64,000 nt of DNA from a virus. The translations under genes were made by a program, and so were the position numbers. Shown here in pieces: positions 7,515-48,617 of this stretch; position 1 is the first letter of the stretch, and each line of letters begins with the position of its first letter. The stretch lies in IMG/VR virus record IMGVR_UViG_3300032315_001604, positions 96,001-160,000 of that record, one strand, 5' to 3'. The notes below the pieces were generated by a model. That model made no database searches and had not been told where the DNA came from. It saw only the letters and a program-made list of their open reading frames with translations.

Positions 7515-8311
7515 ATTTCTTTTAGTTTTTGCACAACTTCTTGTTCAGAAGCAATGTTTTCTTGTGGTCCGTATCCCGCAACAACCGAGAAGTTATTCTT
7601 GTGAATAAAATGATCCAATCCTTTTTTAAAGGTATCTTGAAAATCAGATTCGGATCTAATTTTAGATTGTTGGTGATCAGGAACAATATCTTTTAAGTAT
7701 AAATTAGAATCTTTAATATCAGCAAACCATCTAAAAGGAGGATGGTAGTTATTTTTAATAATTTGATATGTATGATCTACATGCTCTAATGCATTATAAA
7801 AATTTTCATCCATTAAACCGATTTTATTTAAGACATCTACATGATAGTAACTAAATGCTCCAAGCACATTAGGGTATAAATTAATTGATGTTTTATCAGG
7901 ATAATTTATAGATTTACGGATATTTGGTTGATTTAAAAAATTTAAATTGTGATTGCCATGAAGTCCGTAGTTAAAATGTTTAATACCTGTGCTTTTTGAA
8001 GCATTTATATATTTTTCAAAAATTTCATGATTTAAAATTTCAATGTCATCTTCCATTAAGAAGATATGTTCACATTTTTGATCTAATAAATATTTTAAAG
8101 CTATGTTTTTTGCTTTAGCTACTCCCTCCTTGCCCTTTGTCTCTTTAAAAATAACAGGATAATATGGCAATTTTTCCGTTCCATCATTGATTATGATATA
8201 TTCTAACTCTGTTTTTTGAGAAGCATCTAATAGAGAAGTGACCGATTTTTTATAAAAATCTGGTCTGTCACATGTAATTAGCCCTATTCCTATTTTATTT
8301 TGAGCTACCAT
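7490..8311 (-). CDS. GT2 glycosyltransferase, paralogue of the N-terminal domain of 5385-7514
   Basis: IGIGLITCDRP, FLMEDD, EHVDHTY; start placed at MVAQNK (8311). Confidence 0.8.
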   Translation of the reverse strand: MVAQNKIGIGLITCDRPDFYKKSVTSLLDASQKTELEYIIINDGTEKLPYYPVIFKETKGKEGVAKAKNIALKYLLDQKCEHIFLMEDDIEILNHEIFEKYINASKSTGIKHFNYGLHGNHNLNFLNQPNIRKSINYPDKTSINLYPNVLGAFSYYHVDVLNKIGLMDENFYNALEHVDHTYQIIKNNYHPPFRWFADIKDSNLYLKDIVPDHQQSKIRSESDFQDTFKKGLDHFIHKNNFSVVAGYGPQENIASEQEVVQKLKEIWKLYHQE

Positions 8312-9074
8312 AAGTTTTTTGAAGTTTTTCCATAAACTCAAGTAAAACTTGTTGGGTTACTCCACTTGGATCATTTTGAGATGGTATATATTTGTGTTTA
8401 TGGTAAAAATAGGCACAAGATAATTCTAAAGATTTGTCATCATCTGGTTTGTATTGCTCTTTTGACTGAGGCATTTCTTTAAAATTTATTTTTTCTATGT
8501 TAGCAACATATTCCTCTAAAGAATCTTTTTCGATTGTTGGATTATAATGTTTAGGAGGATAAACTTCTTTTTCTCTCATTTTATTGATAAAATCAACTAT
8601 ATCTAAATCTTTGGTGTTATAATATCTTTCATCAAAGTATCCAAAGTTTTTAATAATTCCCGAATACAGAAAGATAAAATTTGTATTAAGCTGTGGAGAA
8701 AGGTTTAGAGTTAAATTGGCAGCATCATCTTCTACTGGAATACTATTAGATCCTGCGCCAGTAATAAACCATGTTCCAAAAGTTTCTGCCAGATTTATTG
8801 TTTTTTCAAAAAAATTATTGTCTTTAATTCTTACATTTGAATTTAAGAGAAAATAGTATTTTAAATTTTTAATTCTCATCTGAGAAATTAAATAGTTTCT
8901 CATTGTTGCTAATGAGACTTGTTTTGTATAATTTTTTTGATTCTCTTTAGAGAATGTTTTATTAGATACAATAAAAACATTTGATTTAAATTCTTCAGGA
9001 ATAGAAGAAATTGCTCCTTCTAATAATTCATCAGAGTGTATGTCTAAAATACCAATTCCTATTTCGCTTTTCAT
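8295..9074 (-). CDS. divergent GT2-like protein lacking the DxD motif
   Basis: IGIGI start and FGYFDERY segment shared with the two adjacent GT2 genes; no EDD motif. Confidence 0.45.
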   Translation of the reverse strand: MKSEIGIGILDIHSDELLEGAISSIPEEFKSNVFIVSNKTFSKENQKNYTKQVSLATMRNYLISQMRIKNLKYYFLLNSNVRIKDNNFFEKTINLAETFGTWFITGAGSNSIPVEDDAANLTLNLSPQLNTNFIFLYSGIIKNFGYFDERYYNTKDLDIVDFINKMREKEVYPPKHYNPTIEKDSLEEYVANIEKINFKEMPQSKEQYKPDDDKSLELSCAYFYHKHKYIPSQNDPSGVTQQVLLEFMEKLQKTYGSSK

Positions 9075-10114
9075 TTTATTAAATCATTATACAATTCTTT
9101 TACATAAGAAACAACTTCTTTTTTATTTTCAATATCAAGAGAGTCTACATATGTTTTAATATCTTGCATTAAATCAACGGTTTTTAATTCATTTTCTTTT
9201 AATGAAGATGTAGTTTTCTCAGATTCTTGATGATCTATTCTTAAAGAAATCGGTTCTAGTTTATTTATTTTGCTGTGTAAAAGTATCAACTTTTCTTCAT
9301 CTAGTTGAGTATCAACGACTAAACTAATATGATTATTTTTAATATTTTCTTTTAAAAAGGATACTGTTATTTCACCTGATAGTATTCTTTTGATAGAAAT
9401 TTTTATATGTTTTGGTGAAATTTTATTTTCTATAAAATCGAAATTGTTTTTTTCTACATCATAAACATATATTCCTCTACTATCTAAAGTGTCACCAAAG
9501 TTTTGTTGATAAGGACTGCCCAAATAAACTATTTCACCGTTTTGATATGTTCTGTGATCTTTTTTATGAAAATGTCCTGAGATAATAAGTTTAGATTTTT
9601 TAAAAAGATCAGCAGACTTTAAACCATGTTCACAAACTTTATATGTATTCATATAAAAAGATGTGATTTCAAAATGACCAAATATAATATCTACATTTGG
9701 AATATCAACAATATCAGTACCCCAAGGAACTAAAACTGCTTTCTTATTATAGATATCTAATTCAAAAGGCATATCATCTATAATTTTGATATTTTTCCAA
9801 CCATCAAAAATTGATATTGAATTAACTTTTCCTGTATCTTTGTAAAAGCTGTCATGATTTCCTACGGAAATATAAAGATTAAAATCTTTAAAATAATCAA
9901 AAAACTTTTTAGCTGTATCTAATGTAGATACGGATATTTCTGATCTGTTATGAAAAATATCACCAGGAATGATTATATCATTTATTCCGAGTTCCAAATA
10001 TTTTTTAGAAGCCCATTCAGCAAATTCTAATACTATCTTATGCCATATAGGATTATCTTGATTAATTCCTATATGAACATCTGAAAAACATCCGATTTTG
10101 TTACTTTTAATCAT
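9071..10114 (-). CDS. gp47: recombination endonuclease subunit (Mre11/SbcD-like)
   Basis: Metallophosphoesterase motifs SDVHIG, GDIFH, GNHD, GHFH, YLGSPYQ; T4-like context. Confidence 0.92.
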   Translation of the reverse strand: MIKSNKIGCFSDVHIGINQDNPIWHKIVLEFAEWASKKYLELGINDIIIPGDIFHNRSEISVSTLDTAKKFFDYFKDFNLYISVGNHDSFYKDTGKVNSISIFDGWKNIKIIDDMPFELDIYNKKAVLVPWGTDIVDIPNVDIIFGHFEITSFYMNTYKVCEHGLKSADLFKKSKLIISGHFHKKDHRTYQNGEIVYLGSPYQQNFGDTLDSRGIYVYDVEKNNFDFIENKISPKHIKISIKRILSGEITVSFLKENIKNNHISLVVDTQLDEEKLILLHSKINKLEPISLRIDHQESEKTTSSLKENELKTVDLMQDIKTYVDSLDIENKKEVVSYVKELYNDLIK

Positions 10115-45834: not shown

Positions 45835-47652
45835 ATGCCATACTACTATCAACAAAAAATAGCAGAAAGATATTTCACATATCATAATCTATGTCATGAT
45901 GGTGAAAAAATAGAAAACAATAAGTTATATACTTTATTAGCACCTCAAAAATTTGGAACACTAGCTAAAAGTATTCCACCGTATATAACAACTAGTTTTT
46001 TATTATCTGGTGGATTGCCAACATATTATAACAACCTTGGAGCACCTGATCCTACTATCAAATGGAGTATAGTAGAAATACCAAATCAAATACCCGATTT
46101 AAATTTGATTACACCATCAGTAACATCATCAATTCCTATAAAAATATCAACAAGAAATCAATTTAGCTATCCGTTTTCGATGGTCATAAGAAATATGTAT
46201 TTCAAATTTAGATATTATATGACGCATCCCGCATCAGCAGCAAAGTTAAATCAGCCGAATCCTACTGGACGTTGGATATATAGCAGAAAACCAGCATTTA
46301 TAGAATATTTTACAAGATTTAATTATTTTAATTACGACTTTAAAAGAAAATATACCAATAATACTGTTTTATCTGCATATGGTGTAGATTTAGATTCATA
46401 TTATTATAACATTGTAGCATCAGACAGTAATAAAAATGTAACATATAAAGAAGTTAATGTTACATCAACAGATTTTATTGATAATAATACAATAAAAGAA
46501 TCTTTAAGTGGTTCATTTTTAAGTAATAATATAAATTCAAATATTAGAATATATCCTTTTAATTATGATTTATCAACACATCCTATTGATTTAAATACAG
46601 CCTTTGGCCATAAAGTTCGTTTATCAGAAAAAAATTTATTAGTTAGTGATCCTTTATCAGGCAATGGTAGAATATATGTTTATGCTTTAAACAAATATAT
46701 AACAGGAAATAAAATATTGCCTGATAAAATTTTGACATCAAATTTTGTTTTATCAGGATTTGGTAATGTTATAGAATATAAAGAAGTTAGAGATAAATCT
46801 AACAAAACATATAAAGAAGTTCTTGCCGTTTCAACACAAACAGCAAACAATTCAAGCGTTGAAATTTTTAGTAATAATTTTGTTACTAAGATAAGTGGAG
46901 TAAAAATGTTTAATCTTTTGAATATTTCTATAAGCGGTCAAAGATTTAGAAACGTTTGGTTTTCCAAAGGAATTAATCAAGAAAACTTAAGTGGTACTGG
47001 TTATTATGGTTATGATTTAGGATTACAAGTACCAGATACTACTTTTAATAAAACAACAAACGTTTTATATGTCAGTGAACCATATAACAATCAAGGAATT
47101 GTATATGTTTATGGTTATCATAATTTTACAAATACTTGGAATTATATCACATCATTATCTTCCGCAAGTGCATTAAATTATGGAAAAAGTATTTCAGTAA
47201 GTGGACCATATGCAATTGTATCTGCTCCAAATAGTATTATAAGCGGTGTTACAGGAGCATTAATAGATGTTTATAAATTTAGCACCTCAGATTTAAACGG
47301 TGTTCCATTATCCGCAGGTACAGCATTATTTTTAGACGGTGAACAATACGGTTTTTACACTTTAGAAAAAACCGATGAAATTTTTATTCCGTCAAATAAA
47401 AATTTAGGAAAACATATTGATTATAATGAAAATCAGTTAACAACTAATTTTTTAAATAGAAAAAATATAAATTTTTACGGAAACCATTTAGCTATTACTG
47501 GAGATAATAAAACAGAAATATACACAAGATATTTTGATAAATTTGAAAAAAATTGTCAAATATCTTCTGCAACAAAAAGTAAAATTTGGGAAAATATAAC
47601 ATATCAAATAAGTAATAGTGCAGTATTTTTAAATGCTGCAAGAGTTCTTTGA
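45835..47652 (+). CDS. virion protein with FG-GAP-like beta-propeller repeats
   Basis: FGHKVRLSEKNLLVSDP...GRIYVY and YGKSISVSGPYAIVSAP; TAAATA 6 nt upstream. Confidence 0.55.
   Translation: MPYYYQQKIAERYFTYHNLCHDGEKIENNKLYTLLAPQKFGTLAKSIPPYITTSFLLSGGLPTYYNNLGAPDPTIKWSIVEIPNQIPDLNLITPSVTSSIPIKISTRNQFSYPFSMVIRNMYFKFRYYMTHPASAAKLNQPNPTGRWIYSRKPAFIEYFTRFNYFNYDFKRKYTNNTVLSAYGVDLDSYYYNIVASDSNKNVTYKEVNVTSTDFIDNNTIKESLSGSFLSNNINSNIRIYPFNYDLSTHPIDLNTAFGHKVRLSEKNLLVSDPLSGNGRIYVYALNKYITGNKILPDKILTSNFVLSGFGNVIEYKEVRDKSNKTYKEVLAVSTQTANNSSVEIFSNNFVTKISGVKMFNLLNISISGQRFRNVWFSKGINQENLSGTGYYGYDLGLQVPDTTFNKTTNVLYVSEPYNNQGIVYVYGYHNFTNTWNYITSLSSASALNYGKSISVSGPYAIVSAPNSIISGVTGALIDVYKFSTSDLNGVPLSAGTALFLDGEQYGFYTLEKTDEIFIPSNKNLGKHIDYNENQLTTNFLNRKNINFYGNHLAITGDNKTEIYTRYFDKFEKNCQISSATKSKIWENITYQISNSAVFLNAARVL
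47607..47640 (+). promoter_or_regulatory. late-type promoter (AATAAGTA) and 5' hairpin for the ribozyme RNA
   Basis: TAAGTA at 47609-14, then TGCAGTATTT-TT-AAATGCTGCA (47619-47640). Confidence 0.55.
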
Positions 47653-48014
47653 TAGATAACATTTAAGATTGGGAGAATTCGGTGAAACTCTTCTAAAGAA
47701 GACAATACCGAGCCGAGCCGTTTTTAGGATAAAGGGAAACGGAAGGTGTAGAGACTAGAGGATGAGCCTAACAATAAGCCTCACAAGAACCCAACAATTT
47801 TATATTTGCGAAAATATAAAAATTGAAGATATAGTCCAAACTTTATGGTGACATAAAGATTAATAAAATGACGCTTCTAAACGGCAACGTCCACGGACAT
47901 CAGCGCAAACTGGAGGTACGCCCCTTTGGCGGCGTTACCAAAAGGGCTTAGAAACAGTGGCTGGCTCCACCAAGGTACAAAAACGTGCCACATTAAATGT
48001 TATCTATTAAAGAA
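47645..48014 (+). ncRNA. circularly permuted group I intron (opened in the P2 loop)
   Basis: P3 47669-73/47790-94; P4 47678-83/47707-12; P5 47689-93/47698-702; P6a 47718-23/47737-42; P7 GACUA 47753-57/UAGUC 47832-36; P7.1-type insert; P8 47795-47825 (GCGA loop); P9 47841-58 (GUGA loop); omega-G 47870; P1 47974-78/47985-89 with U.G; split P2 47645-66/47993-48014. Confidence 0.85.
47871..47976 (+). ncRNA. predicted 106-nt circular RNA product (back-spliced exon)
   Basis: Lies between omega-G 47870 and the U.G splice site U47976; GC-rich and structured in an AT-rich genome. Confidence 0.7.
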
Positions 48015-48588
48015 ACTTAACTTTTTTCTGTTTATACAATTTTTGTATAATATTTTTTTCCCAATCTCCATCATGTTCTTTGGGTTTAGTATAAGATTTT
48101 TTAACCCAATAATGATGTTGATTTGACAAATCTTTTGAGAAATTATCAAGTCCTGCAATATACACGCTATCGTATAAATTTTCTAAAAGCCAAGAAATAA
48201 CTAAAACTCCACTAGAAGGAATTAAATTATCCGCTTTTTCTTTTAATAAAGTTTCTTCTTTTAATTTTTTTCTTAAACTATGATAAAACGATAAAGGAAT
48301 TCTCCATATTTGTTTTGGCGTATAGGGAGGATTTCCAGAATCTCCATGAACATAAAGAATTTTGTTGGGTCGAATATCATCATCTGTCGGTATTTGTTTA
48401 TCTCCCAAAGTACACCATACTGTTGTTTTACTGCCTACATATTTCTCATAACCTTTTATAGCAAATTTATTAAATCTAAAAATTGTATCAAAACTATCAA
48501 TTATTTTACCTTTTTTTTGAAACAGTAAAGAAGGTCCATTTCCTATAATAATAGCAGAATTTTCTTTTTTTAATTCTAATGGATTCAT
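48007..48588 (-). CDS. GT29 (sialyltransferase-like) glycosyltransferase
   Basis: IIIGNGPSLL..KKG.IID.FD.IFRFN...GYEKYVGSKTT (sialylmotif L-like), PSSG..VI..L...D.VYIAGLD (S-like), HHY, EHD...E (VS-like); start placed at MNPLE. Confidence 0.8.
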   Translation of the reverse strand: MNPLELKKENSAIIIGNGPSLLFQKKGKIIDSFDTIFRFNKFAIKGYEKYVGSKTTVWCTLGDKQIPTDDDIRPNKILYVHGDSGNPPYTPKQIWRIPLSFYHSLRKKLKEETLLKEKADNLIPSSGVLVISWLLENLYDSVYIAGLDNFSKDLSNQHHYWVKKSYTKPKEHDGDWEKNIIQKLYKQKKVKFL

Positions 48589-48593
48589 ATAGA

Positions 48594-48617
48594 TTTTGCG
48601 TAAATAATTACGCAAAA
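48594..48617. promoter_or_regulatory. perfect 10-bp inverted repeat between divergent genes
   Basis: TTTTGCGTAA-ATAA-TTACGCAAAA. Confidence 0.5.

What the first reader, a model, noticed from the sequence alone, without database searches (positions are those of the whole stretch)
47871..47976. The 106-nt circle is a GC-rich structured RNA with two copies of AGGUACGC once ligated
Seen: a GC-rich island with stems UUCUAA 47875-80/UUAGAA 47948-53, ACG-GCAA-CGU, CAG-CGCAAA-CUG, CCCUUUGG/CCAAAAGGG (47922-47946) and GUGG-CUGGCU-CCAC. An alternative pairing, GGUACGCC/GGCGUUACC, is mutually exclusive with the CCCUUUGG stem. Ligation creates AGGUACGC, identical to the internal 47914-47921, giving a pseudo-two-fold circle (47 + 59 nt). 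The internal GGUACG can pair with the same guide (CGUGCC), so it may be a second 5' splice site giving a 47-nt circle, or a re-opening site. Inference: a nuclease-resistant decoy, scaffold or switch RNA (for example a protein sponge or anti-defence RNA). Function unknown.
Basis: partly seen in the sequence, partly recalled or inferred. Interest (0 to 1): 0.75.

Follow-up and report, generated by a model that had tools for sequence, protein, structure and literature searches.

The report
Small RNA circle from back-to-front phage intron

Summary
The segment 47871-47976 is real, GC-rich (57% against 31% for the genome) and lies between the 3' part (P3-P9) and the 5' part (P1, P2 arm) of a group I ribozyme. 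Ten distinct versions of the element follow the same 605-aa structural gene in related phage contigs. Covariation supports three things:
- the 22-bp closing helix;
- P1 with its U.G pair and P10, which join 47976 to 47871;
- a fold inside the exon: the clamp helix UUCUAA/UUAGAA, a GUY-YACG-RAC hairpin, and a hypervariable GC-rich hairpin.

The exon also carries invariant unpaired motifs (ACAUCAGCGCAAAC, ACAG..GC).

Of the two exclusive central pairings, GGUACGCC/GGCGUUACC is the supported one. The internal AGGUACGC occurs only in this phage, with a 6-mer in one relative. The fold is no more stable than shuffled sequence.

The circle has stop codons, no tRNA shape and no Rfam match, so it is a non-coding ring. 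Its function is unknown; circle formation itself is inferred, not observed.

Earlier notes of this scan reported permuted group I introns on other DNA (at least seven genomes), mostly with coding inserts. I found no published phage example.

The parts
47619..47640 (+). Hairpin 'P1a' formed by the last codons of the 605-aa ORF. The linear Rfam model aligns it as a conventional P1 with U47624.G47635.
   Evidence: It adds 15 bits to the Rfam score (80.3 against 65.0). Its distal half is only 63% paired in relatives. The U.G pair is lost in L085, L086, L082 and L087, and it has no P10 partner. It is probably not the splice site in use.
47645..47666 (+). 3' arm of the 22-bp closing helix (P2). It overlaps the stop codon TGA 47650-52 of the 605-aa ORF.
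   Evidence: It pairs with 47993-48014. In 72 control introns the longest such helix is 13 bp. Across 10 versions, 95.6% of cells are paired and 7 pairs show compensatory changes.
47669..47858 (+). Group I ribozyme core, P3 to P9.
   Evidence: Rfam RF00028 scores 80.3 bits, E = 1.5e-20. P3 covaries. Identity to relatives is 0.89-0.97, against 0.74-0.88 for the adjacent gene.
47859..47870 (+). Linker ending in the terminal guanosine (omega-G 47870); the 3' splice site lies after 47870.
   Evidence: It is the first G after P9. A G directly precedes the exon start 'AC' in all ten versions.
47871..47976 (+). The exon: 106 nt predicted to be released as a covalently closed RNA by joining U47976 to A47871.
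   Evidence: P1 and P10 pairing to the downstream guide sequence is conserved and covaries in 10/10 versions. Exon lengths in relatives are 97-130 nt.
47875..47880 (+). H1, 5' strand (UUCUAA): the clamp helix that closes the exon domain.
   Evidence: It pairs with 47948-53. Variants are UCCUUG/CAAGGA, UCCUAG/CUAGGA and UGUUUA/UAAACA.
47889..47898 (+). H2 hairpin GUC-CACG-GAC (GUY-YACG-RAC in relatives).
   Evidence: The third pair is C-G in 4 versions and U-A in 5.
47897..47910 (+). Conserved motif ACAUCAGCGCAAAC; with CGGCAA (47882-87) it forms the conserved internal loop of arm A.
   Evidence: ACAUCAGCGCAAA is identical in 8 of 10 versions; the final base varies (C in 6 of them, G in L085, U in L086).
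47914..47921 (+). Internal AGGUACGC, identical to the ligated junction. It forms the 5' strand of the H3 stem.
   Evidence: Present only here. L080 has the 6-mer, L084 a wobble version, and 7 versions have none.
47915..47939 (+). H3: variable GC-rich hairpin (GGUACGCC / GGCGUUACC with a bulged U).
   Evidence: Every close relative has a hairpin here, of different sequence and length (6 to 11 bp). It is more stable than the competing CCCUUUGG stem.
47948..47953 (+). H1, 3' strand (UUAGAA).
   Evidence: See the H1 5' strand.
47954..47976 (+). Conserved tail ACAG-nR-GCY...CCRC...GGU. After ligation it joins ACGC (47871-74) to form a 27-nt loop carrying the junction.
   Evidence: ACAG and GC are kept in all ten versions, including the distant L082 and L087.
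47974..47989 (+). P1 hairpin in use (P1b): GGU|AC ... GUGCC. The 5' splice site lies after U47976, and the guide CGUGCC is at 47984-89.
   Evidence: U.G is kept in 10/10 versions. The exon-guide pairing extends with compensatory changes (AAGGU/GCCUU, UAGGGU/GCCCUA). P10 is ACG/CGU here, ACGAU/AUCGU in five relatives and ACUUUUG/UAAAAGU in L087.
47993..48014 (+). 5' arm of the 22-bp closing helix (P2). It overlaps the stop of the convergent GT29-like gene (48007-48615, minus strand).
   Evidence: The helix is predicted in the MFE of the whole element, z = -6.55.
48015..48032 (+). T-rich run after the closing helix; a possible transcript end.
   Evidence: A T-run follows the P2 arm in most relatives for which sequence is available; it is clearest in L076, L081, L084 and L082. 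That it is a transcript end is inference only.

Best explanation
The 106-nt segment is the single 'exon' of a natural circularly permuted group I intron. The element sits at the 3' end of the late transcript of a 605-aa structural gene in an uncultured, AT-rich T4-like phage.

**How the circle would form (inferred from the group I mechanism).**
1. On one RNA, the 22-bp P2 helix (47645-66 with 47993-48014) joins the two ribozyme halves.
2. An external guanosine attacks after U47976 in the P1 hairpin GGU|AC..GUGCC.
3. The freed 3'-OH of U47976 attacks after omega-G47870.
4. This closes 47871-47976 into a 106-nt circle, and leaves the upstream mRNA ending in the ribozyme core.

**Shape of the circle.** It is non-coding.
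- Helix H1 (6 bp) clamps the two splice sites together.
- On one side of H1 is a three-way junction. Arm A has a short stem, a conserved internal loop (GCAAC / AUCAG) and a YACG-capped hairpin. Arm B is a hypervariable GC-rich hairpin.
- On the other side of H1 is a conserved loop of about 27 nt that carries the ligation junction.

**Function.** The most likely role, which is inference, is a stable sequence-specific protein-binding or decoy RNA made late in infection. The invariant unpaired motifs would be the recognition surface and circularity would protect it from exonucleases.

**The junction repeat.** The duplicated AGGUACGC is a peculiarity of this lineage's variable hairpin, not a functional two-fold design.
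For: **Shown here**
- The group I core scores 80.3 bits.
- The 22-bp closing helix is far outside the 72-intron control range, whose maximum is 13 bp.
- The element is present after the homologous gene in ten distinct contigs with 35-98% protein identity.
- On the ten-sequence alignment, 90.6% of cells are paired and 20 pairs have changes on both sides. None of 500 shuffles reached this, and slid controls gave about 40% paired.
- U.G, the exon-guide pairs and P10 covary in 10/10 versions. This ties the 3' splice site at 47870/71 to the downstream guide.
- Exon helices H1 and H2 covary.
- A hairpin is always present at H3 despite complete sequence turnover.
- ACAUCAGCGCAAA is identical in 8 of 10 versions.
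- The ribozyme is more conserved (0.89-0.97) than the neighbouring coding DNA (0.74-0.88).
- The whole element folds with z = -6.55, with P2 and P1 in the MFE.
- The exon is non-coding: stop triplets in every circle, lengths not multiples of three in 6 of 10 versions, and no tRNA or tmRNA on the doubled exon.
- The C-terminus of the 605-aa protein is conserved in the unspliced frame.
Against:
- The exon fold is not more stable than shuffles.
- Overall exon identity (0.70-0.75) is no higher than that of the coding DNA, and the two most distant versions (L082, L087) lack the arm A motif.
- The conserved parts could therefore serve ribozyme folding rather than a role of the released circle.
- No target, partner or known family was found.
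- An upstream hairpin resembling a conventional P1 exists.
Confidence: 0.68

Rival explanations
1. The exon is mainly a built-in folding clamp, and the circle is a by-product. H1 and the conserved motifs hold the two splice sites and dock on the ribozyme. The selected outcome is self-processing of the late mRNA: it removes the 3' tail and leaves the message capped by a compact ribozyme 3' end, possibly gated by ribosomes terminating on the P2 arm.
For: - H1 starts 4 nt after the 3' splice site and ends about 23 nt before the 5' splice site in the close versions.
- H3 is free to vary, like a spacer.
- Arm A is lost in exactly the two versions whose ribozyme has also diverged most (0.77-0.79).
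- The ribozyme hairpins that the Rfam alignment places at P8 and P9 end in GNRA tetraloops (GCGA/GUGA). Such loops commonly dock on helices elsewhere; whether they contact the exon is not known.
- The stop codon of the upstream ORF lies in or within 6 nt of the P2 arm in all versions.
- A T-run follows P2.
Against: - Engineered permuted introns work with arbitrary inserts (established knowledge; review PMC4344496). An identical 13-nt unpaired motif and a conserved 23-nt tail are therefore more than a clamp needs.
- Simple 3' processing would not need exon ligation, so P10 would not need to covary as it does.
Confidence: 0.22
2. Conventional cis-splicing. The upstream hairpin 47619-40 is the real P1. 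Splicing would join 47624 to 47871 and change the C-terminus of the 605-aa protein. The downstream P1-like hairpin would be incidental.
For: The Rfam linear model aligns the hairpin as P1 with a U.G pair, and it adds 15 bits. One compensatory change occurs at its base, U-A to C-G in L078.
Against: - The U.G pair is lost in L085, L086, L082 and L087, and the distal half is 63% paired.
- It has no P10 with the exon start.
- The spliced frame would give ..SAVRF* here and unrelated tails elsewhere, while the unspliced C-terminus ..SAVxLNAAxVL is conserved down to 35% identity.
- The hairpin joins the wrong (distal) end of the 22-bp P2.
Confidence: 0.04
3. Inactive relic. A rearranged intron no longer splices, and the GC-rich stretch is leftover exon sequence from a former host gene.
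For: There is no expression data. The exon's GC content is foreign to the genome. The 8-mer junction copy could be a scar of an old insertion site.
Against: - The ribozyme is more conserved than the coding DNA next to it.
- Compensatory changes maintain P2, P3, P1, P10, H1 and H2 across lineages whose proteins have diverged to 35% identity.
- No donor gene was found in phage, viral-contig or genome collections.
Confidence: 0.04
4. The circle is a tiny messenger. In this phage, a GGAGG at 47912-16 lies 9 nt before a TTG at 47926, which would open a 43-codon frame across the junction.
For: This is the sequence reading. The linear form of that ORF is listed at 47926-48126.
Against: - Every circle has stop triplets, and lengths are not multiples of three in 6 of 10 versions.
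- The region holding the putative start is the hypervariable hairpin, with indels of 8-16 nt.
- The substitution pattern is that of paired RNA, not codons.
Confidence: 0.02

Closest known systems
Engineered permuted intron-exon (PIE) constructs from T4 td and Anabaena pre-tRNA group I introns (reviewed in PMC4344496)
   Same: - The order is the same: 3' intron half, insert, 5' intron half.
- The halves are held by a helix at the permutation point.
- The two normal transesterifications close the insert into a circle.
- A clamp helix in the insert brings the splice sites together.
   Different: - This one is natural and conserved in at least ten phage lineages.
- It is opened in P2 with an unusually long 22-bp helix.
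- It carries a small conserved non-coding insert rather than a designed cargo.
[quoted passage not shown] 2021, PMC8637638)
   Same: Both are natural permuted self-splicing ribozymes that stand alone rather than interrupt a gene. Both make small RNA circles of unknown function.
   Different: - The ribozyme class and chemistry differ: group II branching against group I guanosine attack.
- Those are bacterial; this one is in a phage late operon, directly abutting an ORF stop.
- A 2023 list of natural permuted RNAs (PMC10085705) names group II introns but not group I.
Back-splicing of the giant ND5-717 group I intron in corallimorpharian mitochondria (Chi et al. 2019, PMC6545197)
   Same: A natural group I ribozyme with exons in permuted order, resolved by back-splicing into a circular product.
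   Different: There the purpose is to restore the order of protein-coding mitochondrial exons in a very large precursor. Here the product is a non-coding ring of about 100 nt in a phage.
Permuted group I introns noted earlier in this scan on other phage and prophage DNA (AI notes)
   Same: The same back-to-front layout is predicted to yield circles.
   Different: - Most of those carry 150-320-nt coding inserts with stop-free frames.
- This insert has stops, variable length and RNA-type covariation.
- One earlier candidate was judged a decayed intron tail, so each case needs its own test.
- I did not re-examine those loci.
Canonical phage group I introns (Rfam RF00028; for example the introns with HNH genes in Vibrio phage 1.193.O and Shewanella phage 1/40)
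   Same: The P3-P9 core is shared: 86-88% identity over 44-51 nt stretches, including the P7 motif AAGAUAUAGUCC.
   Different: - Those interrupt genes or lie next to homing endonuclease genes and keep the normal order.
- None of 72 viral-contig introns sharing the P7 motif has a closing helix longer than 13 bp.

Membership tests
Group I intron (Rfam RF00028) | Catalytic core P3-P9 scoring above the family's gathering threshold | tested here: met
   80.3 bits against a cut-off of 50. L085, L086, L082 and L087 score 73-84 bits.
Group I intron (Rfam RF00028) | P1 helix with a U.G wobble at the 5' splice site, paired to an internal guide sequence | tested here: met
   GGU|AC..GUGCC at 47974-89. 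U.G is kept in 10/10 versions and the exon-guide pairs covary.
Group I intron (Rfam RF00028) | Terminal guanosine at the 3' splice site, and P10 pairing of the 3' exon with the guide | tested here: met
   A G precedes the exon in 10/10 versions. P10 is 2-7 bp with compensatory changes.
Group I intron (Rfam RF00028) | Canonical 5'-to-3' order P1, P2, P3...P9 inside a host gene | tested here: not met
   P1 and the 5' strand of P2 lie 106 nt downstream of the 3' splice site. The upstream ORF is complete without splicing.
Group I intron (Rfam RF00028) | Self-splicing activity | not testable with these tools
   This needs in vitro transcription with GTP and Mg2+.
Circularly permuted self-splicing intron that makes an RNA circle | 3' half, insert and 5' half on one strand, closed by a conserved helix at the permutation point | tested here: met
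   The 22-bp helix is 95.6% paired and 7 pairs have changes on both sides. Controls reach at most 13 bp.
Circularly permuted self-splicing intron that makes an RNA circle | Circular product observed (back-splice junction reads, RNase R resistance) | not testable with these tools
Conserved structured non-coding RNA | Compensatory base changes in the proposed helices across homologues | tested here: met
   H1: 5 of 6 pairs. H2: 1 of 3 pairs. This holds for the RNAalifold consensus and for the counts on a named structure.
Conserved structured non-coding RNA | Fold more stable than shuffled sequence | tested here: not met
   z = +0.96 for the linear exon. z = 0.09 for the circular fold.
Circular mRNA with an endless reading frame (the class noted earlier in this scan) | Circle length a multiple of three and no stop codon in the frame | tested here: not met
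   The circle is 106 nt with two stop triplets. All ten versions have stops, and 6 of 10 are not multiples of three.
tRNA, tmRNA or any Rfam family for the exon | Match of the exon to a curated model | tested here: not met
   ARAGORN finds none on the window or on the doubled exons. Rfam gives only chance-level hits. The rotated circular sequence could not be given to Rfam.

The most novel reading that the evidence does not exclude
The ring is a trans-acting phage RNA made by a ribozyme so that it has no ends. It would be a long-lived decoy or sponge that titrates a host RNA-binding protein or nuclease (for example a defence or RNA-decay factor) late in infection. The invariant ACAUCAGCGCAAAC / ACAG..GC surfaces would be the bait. 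This would be the first natural circular non-coding RNA with a function in a bacterial virus, and the first natural permuted group I intron described in one.
Probability: 0.2. Interest if true: 0.9.

Novelty: new variant of a known kind. Interest (0 to 1): 0.72.

Why it matters
- **A gap in the natural record.** Circular RNAs made by permuted group I introns are a workhorse of RNA engineering. Natural examples known in print are limited to a mitochondrial oddity and to group II introns in bacteria.
- **Evidence of selection.** This phage lineage has kept such a device for long enough that its neighbouring proteins diverged to 35% identity, with the ribozyme under tighter constraint than the proteins. 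That implies the device does something useful.
- **A different kind of product.** This circle is small, non-coding and structurally conserved, unlike the coding circles noted elsewhere in this scan. It points to a second use of the same trick: an end-less regulatory or decoy RNA, or a self-processing 3' end for late mRNAs.
- **Practical value.** It offers a compact natural scaffold (a 22-bp closing helix, a 6-bp clamp and a freely variable hairpin arm) for circular RNA design.

Tried and rejected
- **Default Rfam scan.** The gathering scan of the whole window found nothing. The intron appears only with laxer filters on a short stretch. In the multi-locus scan, five close relatives were again missed.
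- **Exact searches for the exon.** No new versions came from viral contigs, one scan of metagenome contigs (one hit, identical to L086) or 185,579 species genomes.
- **Ribozyme-specific 33-mer.** No hits in viral contigs or genomes.
- **Deposited phages.** BLAST of the element finds only short core matches. The 605-aa protein has no match there.
- **Relatives through other routes.** The 954-aa neighbour gave two distant loci without an intron. The 605-aa protein found no relative in viral contigs.
- **Antisense targets.** Hits in the 195-kb genome were 2 at 11 nt and none at 12 nt or more, both below the shuffle means of 5.6 and 1.1. The first version of that script timed out.
- **Extra pairings.** An all-against-all covariation scan for pseudoknots recovered only the known helices plus lineage-correlated noise.
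- **tRNA-like reading.** Rejected.
- **Coding reading.** Rejected.
- **Origin of the exon.** The nearest canonical introns sit beside HNH genes in unrelated contexts and say nothing about where the exon came from.
- **Literature.** Four searches found no report of a natural permuted group I intron in bacteria or phages. The library is incomplete, so this is not proof of absence.

Full report
**What is at the coordinates.**
- It is 56.6% G+C in a genome of 31.4%. The island is visible in 100-nt windows.
- The window is part of a 195-kb viral record. Its clamp loader is under 40% identical to those of T4-like cyanophages. Nearby genes include a baseplate wedge protein.

**The surrounding ribozyme.**
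- A short-range Rfam search finds a group I intron core at 47615-47858: 80.3 bits, E = 1.5e-20. The default scan of the whole window had missed it.
- The 3' splice site follows the first G after P9 (G47870).
- Downstream of the GC-rich segment lies a hairpin, GGU|AC-loop-GUGCC (47974-89), with a U.G pair.
- A 22-nt stretch at 47993-48014 is complementary to 47645-66, which sits two bases before P3.
- The same test on 72 viral-contig introns that share the P7 motif gave a longest helix of 13 bp.
- The 370-nt element folds with z = -6.55, and both P2 and P1 are in the minimum-energy structure.
- The layout is therefore 3' half, insert, 5' half, opened in P2.

**Relatives.**
- The 605-aa protein encoded just upstream has eleven homologues in metagenome assemblies, at 35-98% identity.
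- Every contig that extends far enough carries the element in the same place. That gives ten distinct versions.
- The neighbouring GT29-like gene is present in some and absent in others.

**Covariation in the ribozyme and splice-site pairings.**
- On the ten-sequence alignment with a structure I named, 90.6% of cells are paired, and 20 of 47 pairs show changes on both sides.
- None of 500 shuffles reached the observed paired fraction, number of two-sided changes or covariation score. Sliding the partners drops pairing to about 40%.
- The closing helix has 7 covarying pairs, and P3 has 2.
- The U.G pair of the downstream P1 is kept in all ten versions.
- The exon-guide pairs lengthen by compensatory change (AAGGU/GCCUU, UAGGGU/GCCCUA).
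- P10 changes in step with the first exon bases: ACG/CGU here, ACGAU/AUCGU in five relatives, ACUUUUG/UAAAAGU in L087.
- This ties the 3' splice site to the downstream guide. The ligation must therefore join 47976 to 47871 and close the insert. Circle formation itself remains an inference from the known group I mechanism, because no RNA data could be consulted.

**The rival conventional reading.**
- Rfam's linear model uses a hairpin in the last codons of the ORF (47619-40) as P1, worth 15 bits.
- In relatives its U.G pair is lost four times and its distal half is 63% paired. It has no P10.
- The protein's C-terminus is conserved in the unspliced frame.
- I regard this hairpin as not the splice site in use.

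**The exon itself.**
- Thermodynamics does not single it out: z = +0.96 for the linear form and 0.09 for the circle.
- Comparison with relatives does single it out.
- H1 (47875-80 with 47948-53) covaries in 5 of 6 pairs.
- H2 (GUY-YACG-RAC, 47889-98) switches between C-G and U-A.
- A short stem CG/CG (47882-83 with 47904-05) would enclose a conserved internal loop.
- ACAUCAGCGCAAA is identical in 8 of 10 versions.
- A 3-bp stem under the central hairpin varies as CCU/GGG, CCG/UGG, GCU/GGC and UCU/AGA. This is weaker evidence, because I fitted it by eye and by constrained folding.
- The central hairpin H3 differs completely in sequence and length between versions but is always a GC-rich hairpin.
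- The 23 nt between H1 and the 5' splice site keep ACAG..GC....CC.C even in the most distant versions.
- After ligation this tail and the first four exon bases form a 27-nt loop opposite the three-way junction.

- UUCUAA/UUAGAA is confirmed.
- ACG-GCAA-CGU, CAG-CGCAAA-CUG and GUGG/CCAC are broken by one-sided changes in relatives.
- Of the two exclusive central pairings, GGUACGCC/GGCGUUACC corresponds to H3. It is 3 kcal/mol better than CCCUUUGG/CCAAAAGGG.
- The junction copy AGGUACGC is real and unlikely by chance in one sequence (P = 0.007). However, only L080 keeps a 6-mer, L084 has a wobble version, and seven versions have nothing.
- The junction copy also lies inside the H3 stem. A conserved second splice site or two-fold design is therefore not supported. 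It may be ancestral to part of the clade, or chance.

**What the circle is not.**
- It is not a messenger: there are stops in all versions, and lengths are not multiples of three in six.
- It is not tRNA-like, and it matches no Rfam family.
- It is not an antisense RNA to its own genome at 12 nt or more.

**What it most likely is.** It is a small non-coding ring with a conserved Y-shaped fold and invariant single-stranded motifs.
- My leading reading is a stable protein-binding or decoy RNA.
- The main rival is that the conserved parts serve ribozyme folding, and that the selected outcome is self-processing of the late mRNA's 3' end.
- The available evidence does not separate these two. The experiments listed under decisive next steps would.

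**Prior knowledge.**
- Engineered permuted intron-exon constructs work the same way (PMC4344496).
- Natural permuted group II introns make circles in bacteria (PMC8637638).
- A mitochondrial group I intron is removed by back-splicing (PMC6545197).
- A 2023 list of natural permuted RNAs does not include group I introns (PMC10085705).
- My four literature searches found no phage or bacterial case.
- Earlier notes of this scan report permuted group I introns in at least seven other genomes, mostly with coding, stop-free inserts. Those are unchecked AI notes and I did not re-test them.

Noticed in passing
window 47619-47640: A 9-bp hairpin made of the last codons of the 605-aa ORF mimics a conventional P1 (U47624.G47635) and sits at the open end of the 22-bp P2 helix. 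Its base shows one compensatory change (L078), but the U.G pair is not conserved. Its role is unclear: it could stack on P2, be a ribosome-sensitive element, or be chance.
   Followed up: partly
window 47645-47666 (stop codon 47650-52): The stop codon of the upstream ORF lies inside the P2 arm, or within 6 nt of it in L082 and L087. A terminating ribosome would therefore cover part of the closing helix, so translation could gate ribozyme folding.
   Followed up: no
window 48015-48032 and the same position in L076, L080, L081, L084, L082: A T-rich run directly follows the 5' arm of P2 in most versions, clearest in L076, L081, L084 and L082. This suggests the late transcript ends just after the ribozyme.
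   Followed up: no
window 48007-48615 (minus strand): A convergent 202-aa gene whose homologues carry Pfam PF00777 (Glyco_transf_29, sialyltransferase family) in L076, L080, L081, L082 and L084. It is absent in L078 and L085, so it is an accessory neighbour that is not tied to the ribozyme.
   Followed up: partly
window 1-64000 (Rfam scans): The default Rfam gathering scan of the whole window reported no family, although an 80-bit group I intron is present. The speed filters also dropped five close relatives in a 46-kb multi-locus scan. Such AT-rich phage introns are easy to miss.
   Followed up: yes
L082:3239-3403 and 7847-9262: The most distant relative (a 201-kb contig) carries seven tRNA genes within a few kb of the element, as is typical of large T4-like phages.
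   Followed up: no
window 47796-47824 and 47841-47858: The hairpins that the Rfam alignment places at P8 and P9 end in GNRA tetraloops (GCGA/GUGA). The loop class is kept while the loop sequence varies between relatives. Their docking sites are unknown and could lie in the long P2 helix or in the exon domain.
   Followed up: no
window 56393: A second AGGTACGC 8-mer occurs elsewhere in the window. No link to the element is apparent.
   Followed up: no
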